Shown: piece by piece, positions 16,101 through 45,074 of the stretch
Layout of the letters: each line of letters opens with the position of its first letter
Position numbering within the stretch: position 1 is the first letter of the stretch
From: a virus
DNA length: 64,000 bases
IMG/VR virus record: IMGVR_UViG_3300045988_115074
Location: 173,303-237,302 of that record
Direction: 5' to 3' (one strand)
Made by a program: the position numbers and the translations under genes
The notes under the pieces: generated by a model
The model's database searches: none
Told to the model about the DNA's origin: nothing
Seen by the model: only the letters and a program-made list of their open reading frames with translations

Positions 16101-16413
16101 AGAGAACTTAAATCCAATTCAAGATTTAAAACAACAAGAAGTAACGACATTTAGTGGTAATGGTGGTCGTGGTAAGAAAAGTATGGTTAAACGTACACGT
16201 ATTCACCACAAGACTTCTATAGGTGTTATTTCAGAAGCTACTGTCGATAGTAGTGATGCTGGTGTAACCACTTATATGTCTGCTAATCCTAAGTTTAAAT
16301 CATTATACGGTTTACCTGAAAATTCTGGTACCGAAGAAGTGAATAAGGATTTAAAACCTGAAAACGTATTCTCTACAGCAATGATGATGTATCCATGCTC
16401 TGATACAGACGAT
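13105..16413 (+). CDS. RNA polymerase beta-like subunit, exon 1
   Basis: ORF track; TFSGNGGRGKKSMVKRTRIHHKTSIGVISEATVDSSDAGV resembles beta [40 protein letters not shown]; ends ..YPCSDTDD (compare FLEHDD|ANRALMG). Confidence 0.85.
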
Positions 16414-16796
16414 TGATTAAATATAAAGATTGGGTCGTCTCTAAACCGTTTGAATTGCGGGGACCTCTCGCTAAGTACTTTGTACCAACCCAGGGTAGCG
16501 ATATACTTGGGGGCAGCTCTAATCAAGCTGATACGGTAAAAAGCAAAGTAATAGAGAAAATCCGCAGCCAAGATTCTGCTTTTGTATATAGTAGAATAAG
16601 GTTCAACGACTATCGAAAGCACGCTTGTTAGTAAATTAGGATTAACAAGTGGAAGTGAGTAGAGTAGGGGGTCTGCACAACGTAGACTCTCCCAAGCTGA
16701 CGGGCCGTAGGTCTAACCAACCTGCGGTATGATATAGTCTACTTAAGAAACGATTAAGCATGAAATACTTTCATATGCGTAATTCGTTCATATGTG
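16414..16796 (+). mobile_element. ORF-less group I intron in beta gene
   Basis: Follows exon U (GAT|); ends ..ATATGTG|; contains the R element GGTTCAACGACTATCGAAAG and the S element GATATAGTCTAC. Removing it restores DTDD-PKRSVFLGTQINHS (compare EHDDANRALMGANMQRQ) in frame. Confidence 0.8.
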
Positions 16797-17708: not shown

Positions 17709-18078
17709 AAATGTTAACTTTAATAAAGTGAGTTAACTTGTCCTTCTAGGTAGTAATACCTAGTCGAATGTCCTCTAATTGCTGGAAGTCCCTTAGAGTC
17801 TATTTAACCACAACGTAATTAGAAATAATAAGCGTGAGGGTTTGAGAATAAATAGAATTGGGTAATCAGCAGCTAAGCAGCTAAGTGTTTATTGTTTAAT
17901 TAACATAAGCTGAAAGTTCAACGACTAACCGCTTGCCACGGTGTACATTCAAGTGAATGAAAACGGGGACTTCCCTATAACTGGTAGTTATTGTTATAGG
18001 GAAAAGATATAGTCTTGTCTTACATGAAAGTGTAAGCAGTGTGTAATACACACGGGTAAGAGCTAACGACTCTTATTG
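17709..18078 (+). mobile_element. ORF-less group I intron in beta gene
   Basis: GAT|AAATG 5' junction; ends ..CTTATTG|; R element AGTTCAACGACTAACCGC and S element AAGATATAGTCTTG. Splicing gives VGD-KMSKLVYGCQLKATV (compare [14 protein letters not shown]). Confidence 0.8.
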
Positions 18079-33431: not shown

Positions 33432-33842
33432 TGGTCCGCGAGGTGGGACTCGAACCCACACGACCTATGGTCGAAAGATTTTCTTACTACTCTTGCTTTC
33501 ACAAGCCTGGTATAGTTATCAGTTGTAGTCTGGACTATATCATTACCTTCAACTTTACTTGCTAAGGTATCCTGAGCGTAGTCTCTGAACCTTCCTCTTA
33601 TCCTACTTAAAGACTTAGAGGCTCGGCTGCTGATTGACCAATTTCCGATATTCTTATAACTTTCGTATTCGTCGTTTCCAACCACACTGTAGTCATCGGA
33701 ACTATAAGGTTATTCCAGCAGTTTCCAGGATTCTCATCTATATATTTCTATATAGCGGCTCTATGTTCATCTAAATATCAGTTAAGATATTAAGACTACT
33801 ATACTAAAGTCTTTTATGTCTACCCAATTCCATCACTCGCGG
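33432..33842 (-). tRNA. tRNA-Leu: tRNA-Leu(UAA) interrupted by a group I intron (exons 33842-33807 and 33482-33432)
   Basis: The joined exons give an 87-nt class II tRNA: acceptor CCGCGAG/CTCGCGG, D arm ATGGAATTGGGTAGACAT, anticodon stem AAAGA/TCTTT, loop CT-TAA-AA, long variable arm CGACCATAGGTCG, T arm GTGGGTTCGAGTCCCAC, encoded CCA. Confidence 0.8.
33483..33806 (-). mobile_element. group I intron in the tRNA-Leu(UAA) anticodon loop (between nt 34 and 35)
   Basis: 324 nt; follows an exon U and ends in G; R element GGTTCAGAGACTACGC and S element ATGATATAGTCCAGAC; the first 15 nt can pair with exon AAGACT (P1). Confidence 0.75.
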
Positions 33843-33965: not shown

Positions 33966-34049
33966 TGGTGGAGGGAGTAGGATTTGAACCTACGAACCTT
34001 TCGGGGCGGATTTACAGTCCGCTGGATTTAACCACTCTCCAATCCCTCC
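33966..34049 (-). tRNA. tRNA-Tyr: tRNA-Tyr(GUA)
   Basis: Folded by hand: acceptor GGAGGGA/TCCCTCC, anticodon arm GCGGA-CTGTAAA-TCCGC, long variable arm, T arm GTAGGTTCAAATCCTAC, CCA. Confidence 0.85.
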
Positions 34050-34257
34050 AGTTAATTTAATAACCCCATCCTTCAGTACATATAATAGAATTCATGGTAT
34101 TATCTCCTAATTGGGTATACTCTTACAGGATTTACCTGCATCTACCACCGTAGGTTACGTTTGTCCGAAAGCATTGATACAAGCGGTTTGAAGTAGAAGA
34201 TGTGCTTTTACGTAACTATTGGTGATTGTTTTATTTTAAACTAAAGAGTACATTAAC

Positions 34258-34332
34258 TGGCGCACCTAGAAAGATTCGAACTCTCACTAAAGGTATAGAA
34301 CACCCTTGTGCTATCCATTACACTATAGATGC
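34258..34332 (-). tRNA. tRNA-Arg: tRNA-Arg(UCU)
   Basis: Folded by hand: acceptor GCATCTA/TAGGTGC (one G-U), anticodon arm AGGGT-GTTCTAT-ACCTT, T arm GAGAGTTCGAATCTTTC, CCA; 75 nt. Confidence 0.8.
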
Positions 34333-34339
34333 TAATAAC

Positions 34340-34425
34340 TGGTGCGTGAGGAGAGACTCGAACTCTCACTCCTTTCGGAACAAGGACCTAAACCTTGCGT
34401 GGCTGCCTGATTTCACCACTCACGC
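34340..34425 (-). tRNA. tRNA-Leu: tRNA-Leu(UAG)
   Basis: Folded by hand: acceptor GCGTGAG/CTCACGC, anticodon arm CAAGG-TTTAGGT-CCTTG, long variable arm, T arm GAGAGTTCGAGTCTCTC, CCA. Confidence 0.85.
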
Positions 34426-34585
34426 TCATTTTCATATATAGAGAAGATATAGAAAATATTATTTAGTTTTTAAAAATAGCTCTTCAACATATATTCTAGA
34501 ATAATTCAGATATATACTACTATAGTGAAAGAGAAGAGTAAACTTCTTATTTAACTATTTTACTATTTATATAAAGGAAATTACT

Positions 34586-34913
34586 ATGTTGACTTTTAAA
34601 CAAAAATCCGCTTGGATTCTCCGTAACCAAGGTCGTGTTATCCGTTTTGCTAAAGCTATTGAAGCTTTGGAAAACACTGTATCTAAAAACAAAGCTCACA
34701 AACAGTGCGTGGAGTACAACTTCCACCGTACTGAAATTATTCGTTGGTTCTCCTAGCGAATACAATTCTTTATTTGCTAAATACGAGAACGATATCGCTA
34801 CCATCGATACCAGCATTGAATCTGGTGAACGTAAAGTGAATCGTATGAAATCTGTTGCACAAAAATTACGTGCACATGAGAAAGTAATCTATACTTTACC
34901 ACACACTTGGTAA
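34586..34913 (+). CDS. hypothetical protein encoded in two frames (56-aa frame 0 to TAG at 34754, continuing in +1 frame to 34913)
   Basis: TATATAAAGGAAATTACTATG box at 34586; frame 0 gives MLTFKQKSAWILRNQGRVIRFAKAIEALENTVSKNKAHKQCVEYNFHRTEIIRWFS*; the +1 frame from 34755 gives SEYNSLFAKYENDIATIDTSIESGERKVNRMKSVAQKLRAHEKVIYTLPHTW*; a terminator follows. Confidence 0.5.
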
Positions 34914-34929
34914 GGTGTAGATCAAAAAA

Positions 34930-34960
34930 GAAACCCCTTAATCGGGATTTCTTTTTTTTT
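34930..34960. terminator. hairpin plus T9 run between convergent genes
   Basis: GAAACCCC-TTAATC-GGGATTTC then TTTTTTTTT. Confidence 0.75.
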
Positions 34961-34965
34961 GCTTT

Positions 34966-35526
34966 TTATTTCTTTTCTTCAAATGATTTCCAAATACCAA
35001 TAGATGTAGCAATCATCATCATCTTGTCAGAACCTACTACAGTGTCATCTAACTTCCAACCTAATCTAATTCTAAGGCATTTATCTTTTCTAAATGGATA
35101 ACGGTAGATTAAATAGAATTCCCAAACACCATTTTCATTATATTGGAATAATACACCTTCACAACCGTGGTCTGAAGTATCTGGATTACCATGATTAATT
35201 AAACATTTACCGATTGGTCTACCTAGGTAATAGTAATCAAACCAATAGCCTTTATTGCGCCATAACCATGCTGTACGACGTTTAAACTTAATAAAGGTAG
35301 TATCACCAGGCCATCTCTCTAAATGCCATTGATCACCGTCTATAGGGTTATCGTGAGTTAACCAAGGTGTAAAGACTTTAGGTACGTTACCTTCTTTATT
35401 GGTTAAACTAAATAAAGCAATAATAGGCCCTAATGGATAAGAGAGTAGACTTACTACTGTAGAGATAATAAACAAAGGAATAAAAAGAATAAGGTTCTTA
35501 ATGAGTTTAAAATAAATGTGATTCAT
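34966..35526 (-). CDS. hypothetical membrane-anchored protein (186 aa)
   Basis: ORF track; two N-terminal hydrophobic helices. Confidence 0.7.
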   Translation of the reverse strand: MNHIYFKLIKNLILFIPLFIISTVVSLLSYPLGPIIALFSLTNKEGNVPKVFTPWLTHDNPIDGDQWHLERWPGDTTFIKFKRRTAWLWRNKGYWFDYYYLGRPIGKCLINHGNPDTSDHGCEGVLFQYNENGVWEFYLIYRYPFRKDKCLRIRLGWKLDDTVVGSDKMMMIATSIGIWKSFEEKK

Positions 35527-35600
35527 ATTTTGTCTTTCTTAACTGTTAATAGATAGTGTGAATAATCATACAAATTAAAAAAGAAACATAAGGAAATACT

Positions 35601-35630
35601 ACTCTCTACTCCTATTTTGGAGTAGAGAGT
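35601..35630. terminator. hairpin ACTCTCTACTCC-TATTTT-GGAGTAGAGAGT
   Basis: Read directly; lies between the tRNA-like element and the gene start at 35526. Confidence 0.6.
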
Positions 35631-35865
35631 AATACTTAAGAATAGGGGTGAAACAAAACCACCGAGTCACCAGCCTCTAGGAAATGAAAGGATATACACT
35701 ACTATCCTATATAACCTTTAGTAGAGGGTTTGAATTAACTTTAGTCTTTCAACTTTCTATCTTTAATTCGTATAAATAATCTTTAAGCTTTAGTATCTTT
35801 CGAACTTTAAACTTTTAGCTTTTATCCATTCGCTATTGGGCAATCTCTATTTACCCAAATATATA

Positions 35866-35937
35866 TTTCCTTAGGGTGAGTCGAACACCCGACACACTGT
35901 TTAACTGACAGTTGCTCTACCACTGAGCCATAAGGGG
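35866..35937 (-). tRNA. aberrant tRNA-like element (Asn GUU-like)
   Basis: Canonical D arm GCTCAGTGGTAGAGC, anticodon arm ACTGT-CAGTTAA-ACAGT, T arm GGGTGTTCGACTCACCC; but position 33 is A rather than U, and acceptor pairs 1-72 and 2-71 are C-A mismatches. Confidence 0.4.
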
Positions 35938-37578: not shown

Positions 37579-38604
37579 TTAAGTATACAAGTATTCTGTT
37601 AAAATATTACCTAGAAGATTACGACACTTAATCTCTACATTACTTACATCGTAACTTAGTTCAGACATATCCAAGTCAACACCTAACAGTCTAGGGAATT
37701 CACATCCACAGTAATAGATTTGGTTGACTCTTTGTCTTTTCAATTCTTCAATTTGTTCTTTAAACTTCTCGTCTTGATTATAACGAGAAGCAATACCTGT
37801 TTTAACTACGTAAGAAACAATATCAAATAACTTCTTACCACTAGGTAATACGTTAGTGCGTTTAGTAGTAATGTACTCTATCAAATCTTTTTTAGTCGAT
37901 TCTATAAAACCATTATAGTCTCTTGGTCTTACTGTGTCACTCATTAGGTTAAAATCTACATAATCGTAAATGGCTTCTAGTACATTGGTATATTGTTTTA
38001 ATTCACCTAAAGGAGAGTCCATAAGTACTGGTCTCTCACCTACAATACCTAATGGGCTAGAGCCTTTAAACCAATAAGCATTACCATGTACCTTATCTTC
38101 TGTAAACATAGCATTAAATCGATTAGGACACTTACTGGAGTCAATACAGAACGTAAATAGTACTTTGGTATTAAATAACTCTTTCTCTATTCTTTCTTGA
38201 AATTCTAACCAAGATTGTTCATTTAAAAAACAATTGACGATAGGGATTCTTAATTCGTCAATACAATGTCCAATTCCATTGTCTTCAAAATAACCTTTTT
38301 CAAACTTTTTTAAAGCATGGATAAATACATCCATGTTAAACTCAAATGGTTTATCGACAATAGCATAAGGAATGCTCACTAGATTCACATTCTCAGTACT
38401 AAAACACCAATAACCATTTTCACTAAAGTAATCATCTTCTAGTTCTTTAAACATACCATACCAAAGAGGATACATTTCTTTAAAGACTTCTGTAACTCTT
38501 ACTGAATTCTCATCAGGTAATCCTTCGTAACATACTGGTACTGCTAAGTTTGTTAAACTAACATCACAATCGAATAAACTTCGCTCTATAAATCGGACAG
38601 ACAT
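37579..38604 (-). CDS. hypothetical protein (341 aa)
   Basis: ORF track; AAGGTAG SD; no motif recognised. Confidence 0.7.
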   Translation of the reverse strand: MSVRFIERSLFDCDVSLTNLAVPVCYEGLPDENSVRVTEVFKEMYPLWYGMFKELEDDYFSENGYWCFSTENVNLVSIPYAIVDKPFEFNMDVFIHALKKFEKGYFEDNGIGHCIDELRIPIVNCFLNEQSWLEFQERIEKELFNTKVLFTFCIDSSKCPNRFNAMFTEDKVHGNAYWFKGSSPLGIVGERPVLMDSPLGELKQYTNVLEAIYDYVDFNLMSDTVRPRDYNGFIESTKKDLIEYITTKRTNVLPSGKKLFDIVSYVVKTGIASRYNQDEKFKEQIEELKRQRVNQIYYCGCEFPRLLGVDLDMSELSYDVSNVEIKCRNLLGNILTEYLYT

Positions 38605-38660
38605 ATCTTCTACCTTCTTAAGTTATGTTTTCATTGATAAGCAAAAGAACATAAAAAATA

Positions 38661-38692
38661 CACTATACTCAGGTGGCCACCTGAGTATAGTG
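38661..38692. terminator. 32-bp perfect palindrome CACTATACTCAGGTGGCCACCTGAGTATAGTG
   Basis: Read directly; on the minus strand it is followed by TATTTTTTAT, so it is the better terminator for leftward transcripts from the gene-free region. Confidence 0.6.
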
Positions 38693-39286
38693 TTTATAAA
38701 ATCAACTTTAGGATTAACAAAATCAAAAATACTAATTCAATACTTTACTAAGCACGTCTTATCCCATAATTTGCTTTTAAGAAACATTCTCCACATAACG
38801 TGCGTTTACAAACGAGTTAAGACTTATTCTCAAGACCGGTATTTATAAGGTTCTTAACCTGAGTTAGATTAACCATCAAAAGGACACTATTTAGGTTTAC
38901 TATCGTATCCTTGTGGTTTAAACCCTAATCACCTTATAACGAGCCTTAATCAAAATCTTTCAATCGTTATCTTTACGTTTAGGTTAGTAAAGGATTAAAC
39001 TTTCATAGAGATTCATAAAAAAGGATTGTTCAATTTCATTACTTAGTTTTTAGTTTCAGTATTCAAAATTATGTTTAAGCATATATATAGACCTACAAAT
39101 AAAAATAAAATCGCGCGAAACATACTTGGGTAGCTGCGCGATACAGGAGCGCCGTGCATCATGGTGGATACCAGACTTGTGTATCTTTGTTACCTATCTT
39201 AAGCGAACGCTTGTTGGATTTATCCTGTTATTGATTCTCTTATCCTCACCTGTTGCCTAGCAACCATCTTCTAAGTACGAATAACA

Positions 39287-39330
39287 CTATCCTCTTTATC
39301 GCCTCTTTAGGCGTATGCTAAAGAGGATAG
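39287..39330. other. nested perfect hairpin CTATCCTCTTTA-TCGCCT-CTTT-AGGCGTA-TGC-TAAAGAGGATAG
   Basis: Read directly; part of a GC-richer hairpin cluster at ~39100-39335. Confidence 0.6.
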
Positions 39331-39360
39331 GGTTAAGAGGATTAGAAGATATTAAAAACC

Positions 39361-39445
39361 CATACTCACTCACGGATACTAACGTCGTAGACAGAATAAT
39401 GGATACTACCACTTGTAATTCATTTATTCGAGTGAGTGAGTATAG
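39361..39445. repeat. structured unit 1 of a tandem pair
   Basis: Closing stem ATACTCACTCAC/GTGAGTGAGTAT around a core beginning GGATACTA and ending CATTTATTCGA. Confidence 0.65.
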
Positions 39446-39468
39446 CATTAGTTGTACAACTCAAGAAA

Positions 39469-39553
39469 CCAAATACCACTACGGATACTAGTGCCACAGG
39501 CGAATAGAGGTATACCTTCTTGGATATACCATTTATTCGAGTAGTGGGATTTG
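39469..39553. repeat. structured unit 2 of a tandem pair
   Basis: Same core ends (GGATACTA ... CATTTATTCGA) but a different self-complementary closing stem CAAATACCACTAC/GTAGTGGGATTTG. Confidence 0.65.
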
Positions 39554-39741
39554 TGTAATGGTTGTAAACCTTTTACAAATAGTCTTTGGTTTATCCAAAG
39601 ACGTTAGTAACGTGCGTTGCTTCATTTGTCTTTTTATATCCTTTTATATCTTCTTGTTTAAGCAACGTAGTTACAAGAGAAAGCTTATGCTTTCTCTCTT
39701 TACTTATTTTTTATTTGTTTTTTATTTTTTTCTTTCTTTTT

Positions 39742-39833
39742 AGACTACTATATTATGAAACGAAGAGTGACCTTTCGAATGAAGTGATAACGGAATGAGG
39801 CGGGGAGCGATGAGTGGAATAATATAGTAGTCT
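39742..39833. other. 15-bp stem AGACTACTATATTAT/ATAATATAGTAGTCT closing a 62-nt loop, flanked on both sides by TTTCTTTCTTTTT
   Basis: Read directly. Confidence 0.6.
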
Positions 39834-39848
39834 TTTTCTTTCTTTTTT

Positions 39849-39907
39849 GGGGGGAAAGGGGGGTGGAGGAGGAAGAGGGTTGTTAGGGAGAAGGAGGAGG
39901 AGGGGGG
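39849..39907 (+). repeat. 59-nt purine/G-rich tract with G6, G6, G3, G3, G6 runs and repeated GGAGG
   Basis: GGGGGGAAAGGGGGGTGGAGGAGGAAGAGGGTTGTTAGGGAGAAGGAGGAGGAGGGGGG, unique in this AT-rich window. Confidence 0.8.
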
Positions 39908-39920
39908 AAAACCCCCCTTT
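39902..39920 (+). terminator. GGGGGG-AAAA-CCCCCC hairpin followed by TTT
   Basis: Read directly; only the plus-strand version is followed by U residues. Confidence 0.5.
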
Positions 39921-39938
39921 AAAATTTAACATAAAACC

Positions 39939-40003
39939 ATACGCTACAGCGTAGGGTTTACCCATTCCTTAATATACGCTCTAGCGTAGGGTATAATTAC
40001 CCC
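39939..40003 (+). promoter_or_regulatory. two tandem copies of ATACGCT-NN-AGCGTAGGGT-N3-7-ACCC upstream of the 40087 gene
   Basis: 39939-39963 and 39974-40003; each holds a TACGC/GCGTA palindrome plus a GGGT/ACCC pair. Confidence 0.5.
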
Positions 40004-40086
40004 TATTATCCATTCTAGCTAAGCTTATGAATGATTACTTTATAGTCGTTCTAATGTACATTTAACCCCTATAAGGAATATTAAAG

Positions 40087-40827
40087 ATGTCTAACCGTCA
40101 AAAACAACGCGGTAATAACCGCAATGGTATGAATCCTGCTAATGCAGAACCTATCCAGCTAGAAGAAGCAGAAGACTTGGAAGTATCTACTGAGGACTCT
40201 CCTTCCATTGAAGAAGGTCGTGAATACACTACCAATGATATTCTTCTACCAGATGCTACTGAGGAAATCCACAATCCTTCTGTAGACTTAGAACAAGAGC
40301 AAGAAGCAGACCGCCTTCGCCATGTAAAAGGTGAACTAGATGTAGATGAAGTACTAGGTTTAGTAAGCCTTACTGCTCGTATGTCTTTACTTGGCATTAT
40401 CGACTATATCGATAAGATGAATTCTTTCAAAGGCGTTATTCGTGTCCTAATGAATGATAAAGGTTTTGTGACTAATCAAGGCCCTATCATGCAAGCAGAA
40501 CTCTTCCGTAACATTATGGACATTATCACTAAGACTTCAGACTTAGATTTCCGCTACTCTATGGACTTACTGATGCAGTTGTTCGTAAAACATGGTAAAG
40601 AAGGTCAACCTCTTAACATCTTCTCTCTCATGCGTTTCCAAGAGAACATTCGTCTTGACTTAGTAGAACAGCAATGTTATCCTAACTTAATGACCATGCT
40701 ATCTGTATTAGCAGACCCTACTACTCGTAGTAGCAAAATCAATAAAGAAATTGATATGGGTCGTGCATTGCAATACGGCTTTAGTGAAATGGCTCGTAAT
40801 CGTCTTTTGGCTTACTTCGGACGCTAA
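40087..40827 (+). CDS. hypothetical protein (246 aa) with an acidic N-terminal third
   Basis: ORF track; AAGGA SD. Confidence 0.75.
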   Translation: MSNRQKQRGNNRNGMNPANAEPIQLEEAEDLEVSTEDSPSIEEGREYTTNDILLPDATEEIHNPSVDLEQEQEADRLRHVKGELDVDEVLGLVSLTARMSLLGIIDYIDKMNSFKGVIRVLMNDKGFVTNQGPIMQAELFRNIMDIITKTSDLDFRYSMDLLMQLFVKHGKEGQPLNIFSLMRFQENIRLDLVEQQCYPNLMTMLSVLADPTTRSSKINKEIDMGRALQYGFSEMARNRLLAYFGR

Positions 40828-41781: not shown

Positions 41782-42273
41782 TGAAAGAAGTAGTAACAAA
41801 TAGCAATCCGAACCGTAAATGCTTTTCCCCTTTCGTTTGTCATTTACCAGAGGAGATTGCTATCTTGGTGGAATATAGGACGAATTAGTCTTTTGATATT
41901 GTTAACTTGGGTGATTTACTTAAGTAATTGGTTGGGTAAGTCCTAATACATTCCTTTATACTACTTCTTTCAACCTTATTCTAAATAAGGGTTTGTTACC
42001 TTAACAACACGTATCATCCGTGGTGTACGTAATAAGCAAAGCTTCAGAGTAGTACGGGGCCTTAGGGAAACGAGAAGTAGACACGTCCTTCCTGTCGGGG
42101 ATCGGCAGGCGCTGAGCATGACCAGAGCGTAGTCCATACATTAACATCATTAACAAAAACAACACCTTTAACAAAAAAATCATCATCAAAAAAATCAAAA
42201 TTATCATCTTTAACAATAAAATTAGCAGTATAATGTTTTTGGTCGGCTCAGGGGTGGTGTCCCTGGGTCGGCC
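41782..42273 (+). ncRNA. candidate large structured non-coding RNA (function unknown)
   Basis: No credible ORF; 14-bp long-range stem 41782-41795/41959-41972 enclosing the 9-bp stem 41800-41808/41855-41863; GC-rich block 42050-42135; ~95-nt G-free tract 42127-42225; 13-bp hairpin 42241-42273 with three G-U pairs valid only in plus-strand RNA. Confidence 0.45.
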
Positions 42274-42377
42274 TCCGGCAACGGATATGAAAAATAACTA
42301 TAAATTAAAAATATAGAAACATATACAATTATGGTGTAAAGACACAATAGTCTTTATTTTATATAAAGGAATTACCG

Positions 42378-42459: not shown

Positions 42460-42555
42460 ATGACCATCTTAATTTATATTATCCTGATTGCCTATTTCTT
42501 GGTAACAGGATACTTATTTTATAAACTCTATATCCCAAAAAGGAAAGACAAATGA
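42460..42555 (+). CDS. micro-ORF, 31-aa hydrophobic peptide
   Basis: MTILIYIILIAYFLVTGYLFYKLYIPKRKDK; its stop overlaps the ATG of the next gene (ATGA). Confidence 0.45.
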   Translation: MTILIYIILIAYFLVTGYLFYKLYIPKRKDK

Positions 42556-43664: not shown

Positions 43665-45074
43665 ATGACTAAAATGACTAACATTGCCCTGGCCGTAATT
43701 GCTGCTGCTGCATCTACTACTGTGTTGGCAGACAATTCAGTAACAGGTACCTACCATGTTACTCAAGGTGATAAAATCACTGTAACTGGTAGTGGTAATA
43801 CCACCGTAGGTACAGACCTGGTAAACAAAGGTCTCTCCAATACCGCATTCGGTATCCATAACACTGTCGAAGGTAAAGACAGTGTAGTAGGTGGCCAACG
43901 TGCACAAGTGAAAGGCGATATGTCTGTTGCCATTGGCCATCACGCACAAGCTCTGGAATCAATGAATACAGCCATTGGTTCCGAAGCTTCTGCTATTGCT
44001 CAATCCTCTACCGCTATTGGTAAAGGTACCCGTACTTTAGGTATTGCCTCTACTGCCGTAGGTGCTCATGCTACTGCTGAACAAAATTCTGATGTAGCCA
44101 TGGGTTTGCACGCTAATGCCAAGGGTGGTCAATCAACCGCTATCGGTCAATCTACTACTGCTGAAGGTGGTCAGTCTACCGCGATTGGTTCAGGTGCTAC
44201 CTCTACTGGTCGTTTTTCTGTGGCTGTAGGCACAAATGCTAAAGCCAATAATGAGCATGATGTAGCTATTGGCTCTTTCTCTACTACAGAGAAAGCCGTA
44301 GGTACTTCTAGCGCCATTATTAATGGTGTAGAATACGGTACATTCAAAGGTCATAAACCTGTAGCTACTGTATCTGTAGGTAAAGAAGGTAGCGAGCGTA
44401 CCATTACCAATGTAGCTGCCGGTCGCGTTTCTGCCGAATCTACTGATGCAATCAATGGTTCTCAACTCTATTCTGTTGCTACTAAAGTAAGTGACAACAC
44501 AGCTTCTGTTGAAATCCTGAAAGAAGCAGTAGCAAGCAATGAAAGCAGTATCGCTGTTAATGCTAACCGCATTACTAGTAACACTCAAGCAATCCAAGGT
44601 ATTAACAACACCATTAACCAACACACTACTTGGAACGAAGCTCAAGATGACCAAATCGCTGAGCTGCGTAAACTCGTGAATGGTTTGCATGGTGACAATG
44701 CCGAAATCCGTAAAGAGCTTCACGATAACCGACGCGAAGCACGTGCAGGTATTGCTGGCGCTAACGCAATCGCTGCTATCCCACAACCTCACGCCCCTGG
44801 TCAAACGGCTATCGGTGTCGGTGCAGGCTACTTCAAAAACGAGGGTGCCGCAGCTGTTGGTGTTTCCCATATTTCTGATTCTGGTAAATGGGTATCTAAA
44901 GCTGGTATCAACGTAGACACTCGCCGTAACATTGGTATTGGTCTTGGCCTCTCTTATGTATTCGGTGGCGTAAAAGTACCTGTACAAACCAAAGAAGTGG
45001 TACATGAAGTAGTGCGTGAAGTGATTGTACGTGAAGTACCAGCACAACCTACTACTAAACGTATTCGTGGTTAA
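43665..45074 (+). CDS. YadA-type trimeric autotransporter adhesin-like protein with signal peptide
   Basis: Signal peptide MTKMTNIALAVIAAAASTTVLA; repeated S.A.G..A.A...S.A.G head motifs; neck ERTITNVAAGRVSAESTDAINGSQLYSV; coiled stalk; anchor GQTAIGVGAGYFKNEGAAAVGVSHISDSGKWVSKAGINVD..IGIGLGLSYVF. Confidence 0.85.
   Translation: MTKMTNIALAVIAAAASTTVLADNSVTGTYHVTQGDKITVTGSGNTTVGTDLVNKGLSNTAFGIHNTVEGKDSVVGGQRAQVKGDMSVAIGHHAQALESMNTAIGSEASAIAQSSTAIGKGTRTLGIASTAVGAHATAEQNSDVAMGLHANAKGGQSTAIGQSTTAEGGQSTAIGSGATSTGRFSVAVGTNAKANNEHDVAIGSFSTTEKAVGTSSAIINGVEYGTFKGHKPVATVSVGKEGSERTITNVAAGRVSAESTDAINGSQLYSVATKVSDNTASVEILKEAVASNESSIAVNANRITSNTQAIQGINNTINQHTTWNEAQDDQIAELRKLVNGLHGDNAEIRKELHDNRREARAGIAGANAIAAIPQPHAPGQTAIGVGAGYFKNEGAAAVGVSHISDSGKWVSKAGINVDTRRNIGIGLGLSYVFGGVKVPVQTKEVVHEVVREVIVREVPAQPTTKRIRG

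What the first reader, a model, noticed from the sequence alone, without database searches (positions are those of the whole stretch)
39691..39925. Pyrimidine tract, 15-bp clamp hairpin, repeated pyrimidine tract and a 59-nt G/purine tract full of GGAGG words
The sequence order is as follows. First comes a T/C-rich run ending TTTCTTTCTTTTT. Then the stem AGACTACTATATTAT closes a 62-nt loop with ATAATATAGTAGTCT. The same TTTCTTTCTTTTT motif follows again. Then comes GGGGGGAAAGGGGGGTGGAGGAGGAAGAGGGTTGTTAGGGAGAAGGAGGAGGAGGGGGG, closing into GGGGGG-AAAA-CCCCCC-UUU. In this AT-rich genome such a tract is a strong outlier. Five G runs of 3 or more could form a G-quadruplex. The homopurine/homopyrimidine mirror could form triplex/H-DNA or an RNA triple helix with the two U/C tracts. 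As RNA, the tract would display about six Shine-Dalgarno-like GGAGG sites, so it could be an anti-SD/30S sponge. All three functional ideas are inference only.
Basis: partly seen in the sequence, partly recalled or inferred. Interest (0 to 1): 0.65.

Follow-up and report, generated by a model that had tools for sequence, protein, structure and literature searches.

The report
Structured phage RNA with G-rich tail
An uncultivated giant phage from the human mouth carries a conserved, non-coding module: a 92-base rod-shaped hairpin built from ordinary base pairs alternating with G·A pairs, followed by a G-rich stretch that can form a four-stranded (G-quadruplex) fold. It matches no known RNA family and its function is unknown.

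Summary
The sequence is as described and is far from chance. It holds the only perfect inverted repeat of at least 15 nt with a 20-100 nt spacer in 64 kb. It also has 39 G in 59 nt and is the only G4Hunter peak in the window.

The "62-nt loop" is not a loop. It continues the helix, with Watson-Crick or G·U pairs alternating with tandem 5'-GA/AG-3' mismatches, capped by GAUA. All six loop substitutions seen in the close relatives are three compensatory pairs. The three invariant U·G pairs and the G·A pairs work only on the + strand.

Fourteen full-length close relatives keep the inner helix, the 3' U/C tract and the G tract better than codon position 3 (0.94-0.98 against 0.86). The clamp arms vary but stay paired.

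Two other lineages have the same plan with different sequences: T run, AT clamp plus GA rod, T run, then G5-6 AAA G5-6, a GGAG word and more G runs. Sister phages have an HNH endonuclease gene or nothing at that site, so the module is accessory.

Four contigs end inside the G tract at different bases, while genome-length contigs read through it. That points to an assembly break, not a genome end.

Best reading: a rightward-transcribed accessory structured RNA of unknown function. G4 potential is supported; the triplex and terminus ideas are not; the Shine-Dalgarno sponge idea is untested.

The parts
39676..39697 (+). Upstream hairpin AGAGAAAGC-TTAT-GCTTTCTCT with a T-rich tail. It looks like a terminator on the + strand only. 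It may end the upstream non-coding unit or be the first domain of the same RNA.
   Evidence: Listed as terminator-like on the + strand. It is single or tandemly duplicated in the close clade, with fully paired variants such as GGGAAAGT/ACTTTCCC. An equivalent hairpin plus T run precedes the rod in L015 and L008.
39698..39741 (+). T/C-rich tract. The distal part varies in length. The last 16 nt (TTTTTTCTTTCTTTTT) are conserved and mirror the 3' tract.
   Evidence: Sequence. Indels in the ATTTTT units, with the stem-proximal part invariant in all clade A sequences. Mean pairwise identity 0.82.
39742..39833 (+). 92-nt rod hairpin. It has a 15-bp AT-rich clamp (39742-39756 / 39819-39833) and an inner helix (39757-39818) in which one to three standard pairs alternate with tandem 5'-GA-3'/3'-AG-5' oppositions. 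The apical loop is GAUA (39786-39789).
   Evidence: Inverted repeat I6 is 15 of 15 complementary. 44 stacked positions: 26 Watson-Crick, 3 G·U, 14 G·A/A·G, 1 other. Over the clamp, the inner helix and the terminal hairpin together, 11 pairs have changes on both sides, 96.4% of cells are paired, and 0 of 500 shuffles reach the observed pairing or covariation score; slid controls give 42-69% paired. The inner helix is 100% paired, and all six substitutions in it form three compensatory pairs. The G·A positions are invariant apart from one cell. Identity is 0.96 for the inner part and 0.72-0.74 for the clamp arms. The same pattern of 2x2 internal loops appears in the minimum-energy folds of L008 and L015.
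39834..39848 (+). 3' U/C tract TTTTTCTTTCTTTTTT, the mirror of the 5' tract. Together with the rod it resembles an intrinsic terminator with an oversized hairpin.
   Evidence: Sequence. Identity 0.98 in clade A against 0.86 at codon position 3. A run of 6-8 T sits at the same place in lineage B and L015.
39849..39907 (+). G-rich tail: G6 AAA G6 T (GGA-type repeats) GGG TTGTTA GGG (GGA-type repeats) G6. It is prone to form a G-quadruplex and carries 5 GGAGG words.
   Evidence: Composition and shuffles. G4Hunter and GGAGG counts. Identity 0.94 in clade A, with indels only in GGA units or single G. Best non-coding match between clades A and B: 49 nt at 80% identity, E = 7e-6 in that small search. 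G4 appears in the minimum-energy fold. One-nucleotide indels rule out coding.
39902..39920 (+). Terminal hairpin GGGGGG-AAAA-CCCCCC followed by TTT. It is a possible 3' end or weak terminator and is specific to clade A.
   Evidence: Sequence. Identity 0.985. One both-sided change, G-C to A-U, in L047. The terminator scan does not call it, because only 3 T follow. It is absent from lineage B and L015.

Best explanation
The module (about 39676-39920) is an accessory, structured non-coding RNA domain. It belongs to an uncultivated phiKZ-like jumbo phage from the human mouth and is read from the + strand (rightward).

Shown:
- A 92-nt rod hairpin forms on the + strand.
- Its AT-rich clamp is free to change as long as it stays paired.
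- Its inner helix of standard pairs alternating with tandem G·A pairs is fixed in sequence.
- It is bracketed by U runs and followed by a run-rich G tail.
- The inner helix, the 3' U/C tract and the G tail are under purifying selection where the module is present.
- The same plan recurs with different sequences in two other phage lineages.
- Sister phages do without it.

Inferred:
- It is transcribed, either by read-through of the upstream hairpin or as one unit with it. L015 has a near-consensus host-type promoter upstream on the same strand.
- The transcript ends after the U tract or at G6-A4-C6-U3.
- The rod acts as a protein-binding or stabilising platform.
- The tail folds into an RNA G-quadruplex and/or displays GGA/GGAGG words.
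- The RNA therefore most likely works as a stable decoy that titrates a host nucleic-acid-binding factor (30S subunit, helicase, RNase or a defence protein), giving a conditional benefit rather than an essential function.
For: Structure and strand:
- Clamp: 7 of 15 pairs have changes on both sides.
- Inner helix: 14 of 14 standard pairs are intact in all 8 distinct sequences. All six substitutions form three compensatory pairs (A-U to G-C, G-C to A-U, A-U to G-C).
- Three invariant U·G pairs and 14 G·A oppositions would become C·A and C·U on the other strand.

Selection (mean pairwise identity in 14 clade A sequences):
- Inner helix 0.96, U tract 0.98, G tract 0.94, terminal hairpin 0.985.
- Third codon positions of both flanking genes: 0.86.
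- Clamp arms: 0.72-0.74, but still paired.

Cross-lineage plan:
- T run, AT clamp, 2x2 GA loops, small apical loop, T run, then TTTTG5-6AAAG5-6 with a GGAG word and more G runs.
- Seen in lineage B, where the flanking protein is 46-52% identical, and in L015, whose local genes show no protein similarity to the window or the other loci.

Orientation:
- Hairpin-plus-T-run features occur only on the + strand.
- L015 has a + strand TTGCCT-16-TATAAT promoter upstream of the module, while its flanking genes are on the other strand.

Other points:
- Not coding: 1-nt and 3-nt indels.
- One copy in the 64-kb window, and one motif match per matching viral contig.
- Accessory: an HNH endonuclease gene (phrog_959) or nothing occupies the same site in sister phages, with sharp borders.
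Against: - No transcription data exist. No promoter was identified for the window's own copy.
- The clamp alone does not reveal the strand: one U·G pair favours +, one A·C mismatch favours -.
- Tandem G·A and G·T pairs can also form in single-stranded DNA, so a DNA hairpin is not excluded.
- The close clade is shallow: 8 distinct sequences and essentially two haplotypes for the inner helix. The three inner compensatory pairs may therefore reflect a single lineage split.
- The decoy function is pure inference. No partner was identified and the host is unknown (one MAG bin is labelled Gemella; this is weak evidence).
- No Rfam family matches, so there is no precedent for the mechanism.
Confidence: 0.45

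Rival explanations
1. The module is a DNA-level element. When transcribed or unwound, the G-rich non-template strand forms a G-quadruplex or R-loop, helped by the adjacent + strand hairpin and the easily melted T tracts. It then serves as one of several redundant replication origins or as a recombination hot spot. Analogues are ColE1 RNA II, phage T4 oriF/oriG, mitochondrial CSB II and the Neisseria pilE G4.
For: - G clusters are followed by G-dense sequence, and this is the only G4Hunter peak in the window.
- The G-run pairs are the most conserved non-coding bases between clades.
- The module lies at a point where gene orientation diverges, at a local minimum of cumulative GC skew near 39 kb.
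- The surrounding region varies in sister clades, with an HNH endonuclease gene or nothing at the same site.
- It is single-copy.
- Dispensability is compatible with redundant origins.
Against: - The rod's G·U and G·A pairs and its strict + strand asymmetry fit an RNA more naturally than duplex DNA.
- Sister phages with nearly identical flanks lack the module, so it cannot be a unique origin.
- The GC-skew minimum coincides with the switch in gene orientation, so it is uninformative.
- No iterons or initiator gene are linked to the module.
Confidence: 0.2
2. The module is a terminator and insulator stack. It has three successive + strand stop or stability elements: the upstream hairpin with its T tail, the rod with its U tract, and G6-A4-C6-U3. 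Together they end the upstream non-coding transcription unit, protect its 3' end from exonucleases, and shield the downstream late virion gene. The G tract has no role of its own.
For: - All three hairpins are followed by T runs on the + strand only.
- The position lies between a highly conserved ORF-free block (39280-39680, identity 0.94) and the virion-type gene at 40087.
- Other intergenic terminators in this phage are also long perfect hairpins.
Against: - A terminator does not need a sequence-invariant 62-nt inner helix with fixed G·A pairs, nor a 59-nt G tract kept above the neutral rate and shared across lineages.
- In L015 the module sits among genes on the opposite strand, behind its own promoter-like site.
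- In lineage B the downstream neighbour is a different gene.
- The scan did not call the rod or the G6/C6 hairpin as terminators.
Confidence: 0.15
3. The tail acts as a sponge for the anti-Shine-Dalgarno sequence of 30S subunits, or for another protein that reads GGA (a CsrA-like protein, or the distal face of Hfq), through its GGAGG/GGA words.
For: - 5 of the 12 + strand GGAGG words in 64 kb lie in the tract.
- Each lineage keeps at least one AGGAG(G) in the tail or the rod.
- Phage genes themselves use the weaker AAAGGAA.
Against: - The number and position of GGAGG words are not conserved: lineage B has one in the tail.
- What is conserved is the G runs.
- If the tail folds into a quadruplex, the words are not displayed.
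- The host, and whether it has CsrA or Hfq, is unknown.
Confidence: 0.1
4. The module is a selfish or neutral cassette, or a physical genome end or pac site.
For: - The three states of the locus in sister clades (module, HNH gene, empty) resemble a mobile cassette.
- Direct repeats flank an element bounded by inverted repeats.
- Four contigs end in the tract.
Against: - It is single-copy, with no transposase nearby.
- The 13-16-nt flanking repeat is long for a target-site duplication (my own knowledge of insertion-sequence families), and T runs flank the rod in all lineages.
- It is under purifying selection above the neutral proxy.
- The contig ends fall at four different bases (about 39863-39892), and ten contigs of 205-244 kb read through.
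- Unrelated contigs also stop at G5-6AAAG5-6 motifs (L020, L021, L026). This points to a sequencing or assembly break.
Confidence: 0.07

Closest known systems
Orphan stable small RNAs of large lytic phages, such as T4 rnaC/rnaD (species 1 and 2 RNAs). From my own knowledge; not tested here.
   Same: Phage-encoded and non-coding. Close to a tRNA cluster (tRNAs at 33966-35937). Paired ends, dispensable, function unknown.
   Different: No sequence or model match to anything in Rfam. The GA-rod plus G-run tail architecture is not described for those RNAs.
Tandem sheared G·A internal loops and the kink-turn family
   Same: Repeated 5'-GA-3'/3'-AG-5' oppositions closed by C-G or G-C pairs, for example CGAG over CGAG. 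This is the most stable context known for tandem G·A (established thermodynamics).
   Different: Kink-turns need a 3-nt bulge next to the G·A pairs. Here all the loops are symmetric 2x2 (or 3x3) and repeat two to six times along a straight rod.
Functional G-quadruplex or R-loop elements: Neisseria pilE G4 with its sRNA, mitochondrial CSB II, ColE1 RNA II (from my own knowledge)
   Same: Clustered G runs on one strand next to a transcribed region. A G6-A-G8-like core (here G5-6 AAA G5-6). The element is cis-acting and single-copy.
   Different: No link to replication or recombination has been shown. The element is dispensable in sister phages. An adjacent sequence-conserved rod hairpin is not part of those systems.
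CsrB/RsmZ-type protein-sponge RNAs
   Same: Many GGA words in a non-coding RNA that ends in a terminator-like hairpin.
   Different: The GGA words here lie in a continuous purine tract, not in hairpin loops. Their number is not conserved between lineages. No CsrA is known for the (unknown) host.
ENE/MALAT1-type RNA triple-helix clamps and H-DNA
   Same: Two mirror-symmetric U/C tracts face each other across a stem. G5-6AAAG5-6 is a homopurine mirror repeat.
   Different: There is no lower stem. No A-rich partner exists on the same strand. The homopurine character is not kept in lineage B.
Rho-independent terminators
   Same: Hairpins followed by U runs on the + strand.
   Different: The hairpin is 92 nt long with a sequence-invariant interior. 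There is also a U run upstream. The terminal G6/C6 hairpin has only 3 U after it.

Membership tests
Any Rfam 15 family | Covariance-model score at or above the family's gathering threshold | tested here: not met
   No hit in 38550-40150 better than E = 0.15, and all hits are far below gathering. The whole window gave only tRNAs and group I introns. Relatives gave nothing.
Canonical G-quadruplex motif (G3+ N1-7, four runs) | Four runs of at least 3 G with all loops of 1-7 nt | tested here: not met
   Window: G6-AAA-G6-(13 nt)-GGG-TTGTTA-GGG-(13 nt)-G6, so the central loops exceed 7 nt. Lineage B has loops of 3, 11 and 6 nt.
Extended G-quadruplex propensity | G4Hunter score of 1.5 or more, or a quadruplex in the minimum-energy fold with long loops allowed | tested here: met
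   G4Hunter maximum 2.40, and the only such region in 64 kb. ViennaRNA gquad gives -45.9 against -21.4 kcal/mol for L008 (5 layers). Quadruplexes also appear in the window, L007, L012 and L015, but only 2-layer ones in L012 and L015.
G-quadruplex as a functional element | Formation in vitro or in vivo, with a phenotype | not testable with these tools
   Needs K+/Li+ dependent probing, CD, or polymerase or RT stop assays.
H-DNA / intramolecular triplex | A long homopurine-homopyrimidine mirror repeat with a short spacer, conserved as such | tested here: not met
   The mirror Py tracts are separated by a 92-nt hairpin. The purine tract has 5 T and loses its homopurine character in lineage B.
ENE/MALAT1-type RNA triple helix | A U-rich internal loop closed by stems on both sides, plus an A-rich strand in cis or a poly(A) tail | tested here: not met
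   The upper stem is present. No lower stem is conserved. No + strand AAAAAGAAAGAAAAA-like sequence was found with up to 2 mismatches, apart from one weak site at 42538.
Kink-turn | A 3-nt bulge followed by tandem sheared G·A and A·G pairs | tested here: not met
   Tandem G·A pairs are present, but every loop is symmetric and no bulge exists.
Rho-independent terminator | A G+C-rich stem, a loop of 3-8 nt, and at least 5 U within 8 nt after the stem | tested here: inconclusive
   The upstream hairpin 39676-39697 is called. The rod (oversized hairpin) and G6-A4-C6 (3 U) are not called by the scan. U runs follow both on the + strand.
MITE or insertion sequence with terminal inverted repeats and target-site duplication | Multiple copies, terminal inverted repeats, a short target duplication, and no selection on the interior | tested here: not met
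   The window holds one G tract and one such inverted repeat, and each matching viral contig has one motif match. The interior is more conserved than codon position 3. The arms co-vary.
Genome terminus or pac site | A fixed physical end, or a packaging start at one position | tested here: not met
   Four contigs end at four different bases within about 30 nt. Ten contigs of 205-244 kb span the site, with the gene at varying internal positions. Raw reads were not available.
CsrB/RsmZ-type sponge | Repeated A(N)GGA in hairpin loops, and a host CsrA/RsmA | not testable with these tools
   The GGA words lie in an unstructured or G4-prone tract and their number is not conserved. The host is unknown.
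Protein-coding gene | An open frame conserved among relatives | tested here: not met
   1-nt and 3-nt indels in the tract, and an 11-nt indel inside the only overlapping ORF, 39753-39965 on the - strand.

The most novel reading that the evidence does not exclude
The GA-rod plus G-quadruplex tail is a new class of phage-encoded decoy RNA. The rod recruits or resists a host protein. The quadruplex or GGAGG-bearing tail sequesters a host factor such as the 30S subunit, a G4 or RNA helicase, an RNase, or a nucleic-acid-sensing defence protein. This gives a conditional advantage, which would explain why the module is kept by some jumbo-phage lineages and swapped for a homing endonuclease gene, or lost, in others.
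Probability: 0.15. Interest if true: 0.8.

Novelty: new member of a known kind. Interest (0 to 1): 0.55.

Why it matters
If it is transcribed, this is an undescribed structured RNA motif with unusually clean comparative support. It comes from jumbo phages of the human mouth, a group with no cultured member and almost no known non-coding biology.

A helix made of regularly repeated tandem G·A pairs, joined to a conserved quadruplex-prone tail, is a concrete and small target of about 180 nt. It could be taken directly to structure probing and pull-downs.

There is also a practical point. The tract is a reproducible break point in short-read metagenome assemblies of these phages. Contig ends there should not be read as genome termini.

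Tried and rejected
- Rfam at gathering and at permissive E-values, on the window and on relatives: nothing.
- blastn and megablast against GenBank phages: no match. The nearest cultured relatives are Burkholderia FLC9 and Ralstonia RP12, at no more than 41% amino-acid identity in an RNA polymerase subunit. RP12 has no comparable non-coding region next to its homologue of the flanking gene.
- Coding potential: rejected because of frame-breaking indels.
- The 5' clamp arm as a promoter (it contains TATATTAT, which recurs upstream of several genes): rejected as the constraint. The arm changes to GTATATATATAT in half of the clade, and only the pairing is kept.
- Strand inference from the clamp alone: inconclusive (one U·G against one A·C). 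The inner helix settled it.
- A long-range Py/Pu 'lower stem' predicted in the minimum-energy fold: no co-variation between variants of the upstream hairpin and variants of the tract, and not predicted in lineage B.
- Triplex partner search: none found.
- Contig starts clustering upstream in the distant relatives looked like a terminus. They are explained by a 78-nt inverted repeat 1253 nt apart in those genomes. The window has no such repeat.
- Most other viral contigs carrying TTTTG5-6AAAG5-6 (L016-L036) are in unrelated contexts. About 15 such matches are expected by chance (my rough estimate, assuming a collection of about 100 Gb).
- Pfam found nothing for the replacing ORF. PHROGs identified it as an HNH endonuclease.
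- Literature searches on jumbo-phage G-quadruplexes, phiKZ non-coding RNAs and tandem-GA phage RNAs gave no precedent.

Full report
CONTEXT

The window comes from a phiKZ-like jumbo phage.
- It has split multisubunit RNA polymerase genes (phrog_2986, 3148, 2962), three group I introns and four tRNAs.
- There is no nucleotide match in GenBank phages. The best match to cultured phages is 41% amino-acid identity or less.
- The same protein sequence occurs on a 237-kb contig from a human oral metagenome. One relative sits in a MAG bin labelled Gemella, which is only a weak hint at the host.

The finding lies in a 1.48-kb ORF-free gap. The gap separates a leftward gene (37579-38604) from a rightward virion-type gene (40087-40827).

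Every element is at the stated place.
- The 15-nt perfect inverted repeat is the only one of that length with a 20-100-nt spacer in 64 kb. Shuffles gave a mean of 0.04.
- The 59-nt tract has 39 G, 15 A, 5 T and no C. No shuffle exceeded 27 G in 59 nt.
- It is the only G4Hunter peak in the window (2.40), and it holds 5 of the 12 + strand GGAGG words.

THE "LOOP" IS A HELIX

The 62 nt between the arms pair with each other in register (positions i + j = 63).
- Fourteen further standard pairs are interrupted by symmetric 5'-GA-3'/3'-AG-5' oppositions, with an apical GAUA loop.
- Of 44 stacked positions, 26 are Watson-Crick, 3 are G·U, 14 are G·A or A·G, and 1 is U·C.

Evidence from 8 distinct sequences of the close clade:
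- The inner helix is 100% paired.
- All six substitutions in it are three compensatory doubles.
- The G·A positions are invariant apart from one cell.
- The clamp has 7 of 15 pairs with changes on both sides.
- For the structure as a whole (clamp, inner helix and terminal hairpin), 0 of 500 shuffles reach the observed pairing or covariation score. Slid controls give 42-69% paired, against 96% observed.

The U·G and G·A pairs become C·A and C·U on the complementary strand. So the + strand is the one that folds.

SELECTION

I aligned 14 full-length close relatives, which are 93-98% identical in the flanking protein. Mean pairwise identities:
- third codon positions of both flanking genes: 0.86
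- inner helix: 0.96
- 3' U/C tract: 0.98
- G tract: 0.94
- terminal hairpin: 0.985
- clamp arms: 0.72-0.74

The arms change freely but remain complementary. Indels in the G tract are single G or GGA units, which excludes coding.

OTHER LINEAGES

Relatives whose flanking protein is only 46-52% identical (lineage B: L007, L008, L012-L014, L070) have the same plan with different sequences:
- T run
- 13-bp AT clamp, with one compensatory T-A to A-T change
- two tandem-GA loops and a 3-nt apical loop
- T7-8
- GGGGGAAAGGGGG TTAAGGAG.. GGGG(G) TTCTTA GGGG(G)

The G-tract core is the best non-coding match between the two clades: 49 nt at 80% identity.

A 165-kb contig (L015), whose local genes show no protein similarity to the window or the other loci, has the same plan again:
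- a clamp with two tandem-GA loops, capped by GAAA
- T6
- then TTTTGGGGGAAAGGGGGTTAA..AGGAGGAG..GGGG TCT GGGG

In L015 the neighbouring genes are on the opposite strand. A TTGCCT-16-TATAAT site lies upstream on the module's strand. This suggests an independent transcription unit.

In all three lineages a hairpin followed by a T run precedes the rod on the + strand.

THE MODULE IS ACCESSORY

In lineage B and its sister lineage the same site exists in three states, with sharp borders:
- the module
- a 117-aa HNH endonuclease gene (phrog_959, E = 1e-9 to 8e-11)
- neither

The module is single-copy: one G tract in the window, and one motif match per matching viral contig. So it cannot be a unique essential cis element such as the only origin or a pac site. 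It does not behave like a proliferating mobile element either.

GENOME ENDS

Four contigs of the close clade, one of them 238,650 nt long, end inside the G tract. They end at four different bases corresponding to about 39863-39892. Ten contigs of 205-244 kb read through the tract. Unrelated viral contigs also stop at G5-6AAAG5-6 motifs. I read this as a sequencing or assembly break caused by the G-rich, slippery tract.

In the distant relatives, contig starts also cluster, about 750 nt upstream of the module. These fall at the edge of a 78-nt inverted repeat (96% complementary) whose arms are 1253 nt apart. The window has no such repeat.

FUNCTION

What is shown is a + strand fold, purifying selection, a recurring architecture and dispensability. 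What is inferred is that the folded molecule is RNA and that it acts in trans.

- G-quadruplex potential is high. The part best kept between lineages A and B is the G runs. However, L012-L014 have lost two of the four runs, and only weak two-layer quadruplexes are then predicted.
- The homopurine character and the number of GGAGG words are not kept between lineages. The triplex idea fails and the Shine-Dalgarno sponge idea stays open.

I commit, at moderate confidence, to an accessory structured RNA that acts as a stable decoy or binding platform. The rivals are:
- a DNA-level G4 or R-loop site (a redundant origin or recombination hot spot)
- a mere terminator and insulator stack
- the specific 30S sponge
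- a selfish cassette or a genome terminus

NOVELTY

No Rfam family matches, and my literature searches found no description. In kind it is another orphan structured phage RNA. In form, a rod of repeated tandem G·A pairs joined to a quadruplex-prone tail appears to be undescribed.

Noticed in passing
window 39362-39443 and 39468-39552: Two paralogous hairpins with 12-13-bp stems of different sequence. Their 58-nt interiors both start GGATACTA and end CATTTATTCGA. They lie in a block (39280-39680) that is 0.94 identical across the close clade, more than codon position 3. ATGGATACT also occurs in the equivalent hairpin of lineage B (L008, about 4975). All three perfect inverted repeats of at least 12 nt with large spacers in the window lie in this one gap. 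This is probably a further non-coding RNA unit.
   Followed up: partly
L008 1856-3320 (also L004, L005, L013): The distant relatives have a 3-3.7-kb ORF-free region upstream of the module. A 1.5-kb block of it is 83% identical between L008 and L004, while the adjacent 281-aa gene is 74.6% identical. L008 1900-2750 is G+C-rich and C-rich on the + strand in a genome of 34% G+C. There is no Rfam hit at E of 1 or less. This is a candidate large non-coding RNA. Nothing similar was found in the window.
   Followed up: partly
L008 3105-3182 and 4436-4513: A 78-nt inverted repeat (96% complementary) flanks a 1253-nt non-coding segment. Contigs of several relatives start at the outer edge of the right arm. 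This is either an assembly-graph break or an invertible segment.
   Followed up: partly
window 39939-39995: Two copies of TACGCTNNAGCGTAGGGT, each a small hairpin, unique to this spot in the window. In L038, L039 and L075 the first copy is exactly reverse-complemented (CCCTACGCTGTAGCGTATGG), which is a 20-bp inversion. The second copy overlaps a sigma-70-like TTAATA-17-TATAAT site.
   Followed up: partly
window 39863-39892; L041, L044, L045, L049; also L020, L021, L026: Short-read metagenome contigs repeatedly end inside the G tract or at G5-6AAAG5-6 motifs. This is a practical warning for calling termini in these phages.
   Followed up: yes
L009 787-1140, L011 415-768, L006 587-940: A free-standing 117-aa HNH endonuclease gene occupies the site of the module in sister phages. 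The L009 copy has an in-frame stop codon.
   Followed up: yes
window 16373-16757, 17720-18036, 33512-33778: Three group I introns. Two lie within or next to the RNA polymerase subunit genes and one is close to the tRNA cluster.
   Followed up: no
window 42210-42300: An isolated G+C-rich segment (GGTCGGCTCAGGGGTGGTGTCCCTGGGTCGGCCTCCGGCAACGG) in an otherwise A+T-rich intergenic region.
   Followed up: no
window 43665-45074: A phage protein with YadA head, stalk and membrane-anchor domains (E = 8e-16 for the anchor). This hints at a host with an outer membrane, which conflicts with the Gemella label of one MAG bin.
   Followed up: no
window 38660-38693: A perfect 34-nt palindrome (17 + 17, no spacer) just upstream of the start of the leftward gene. 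It looks like a terminator on the - strand.
   Followed up: no
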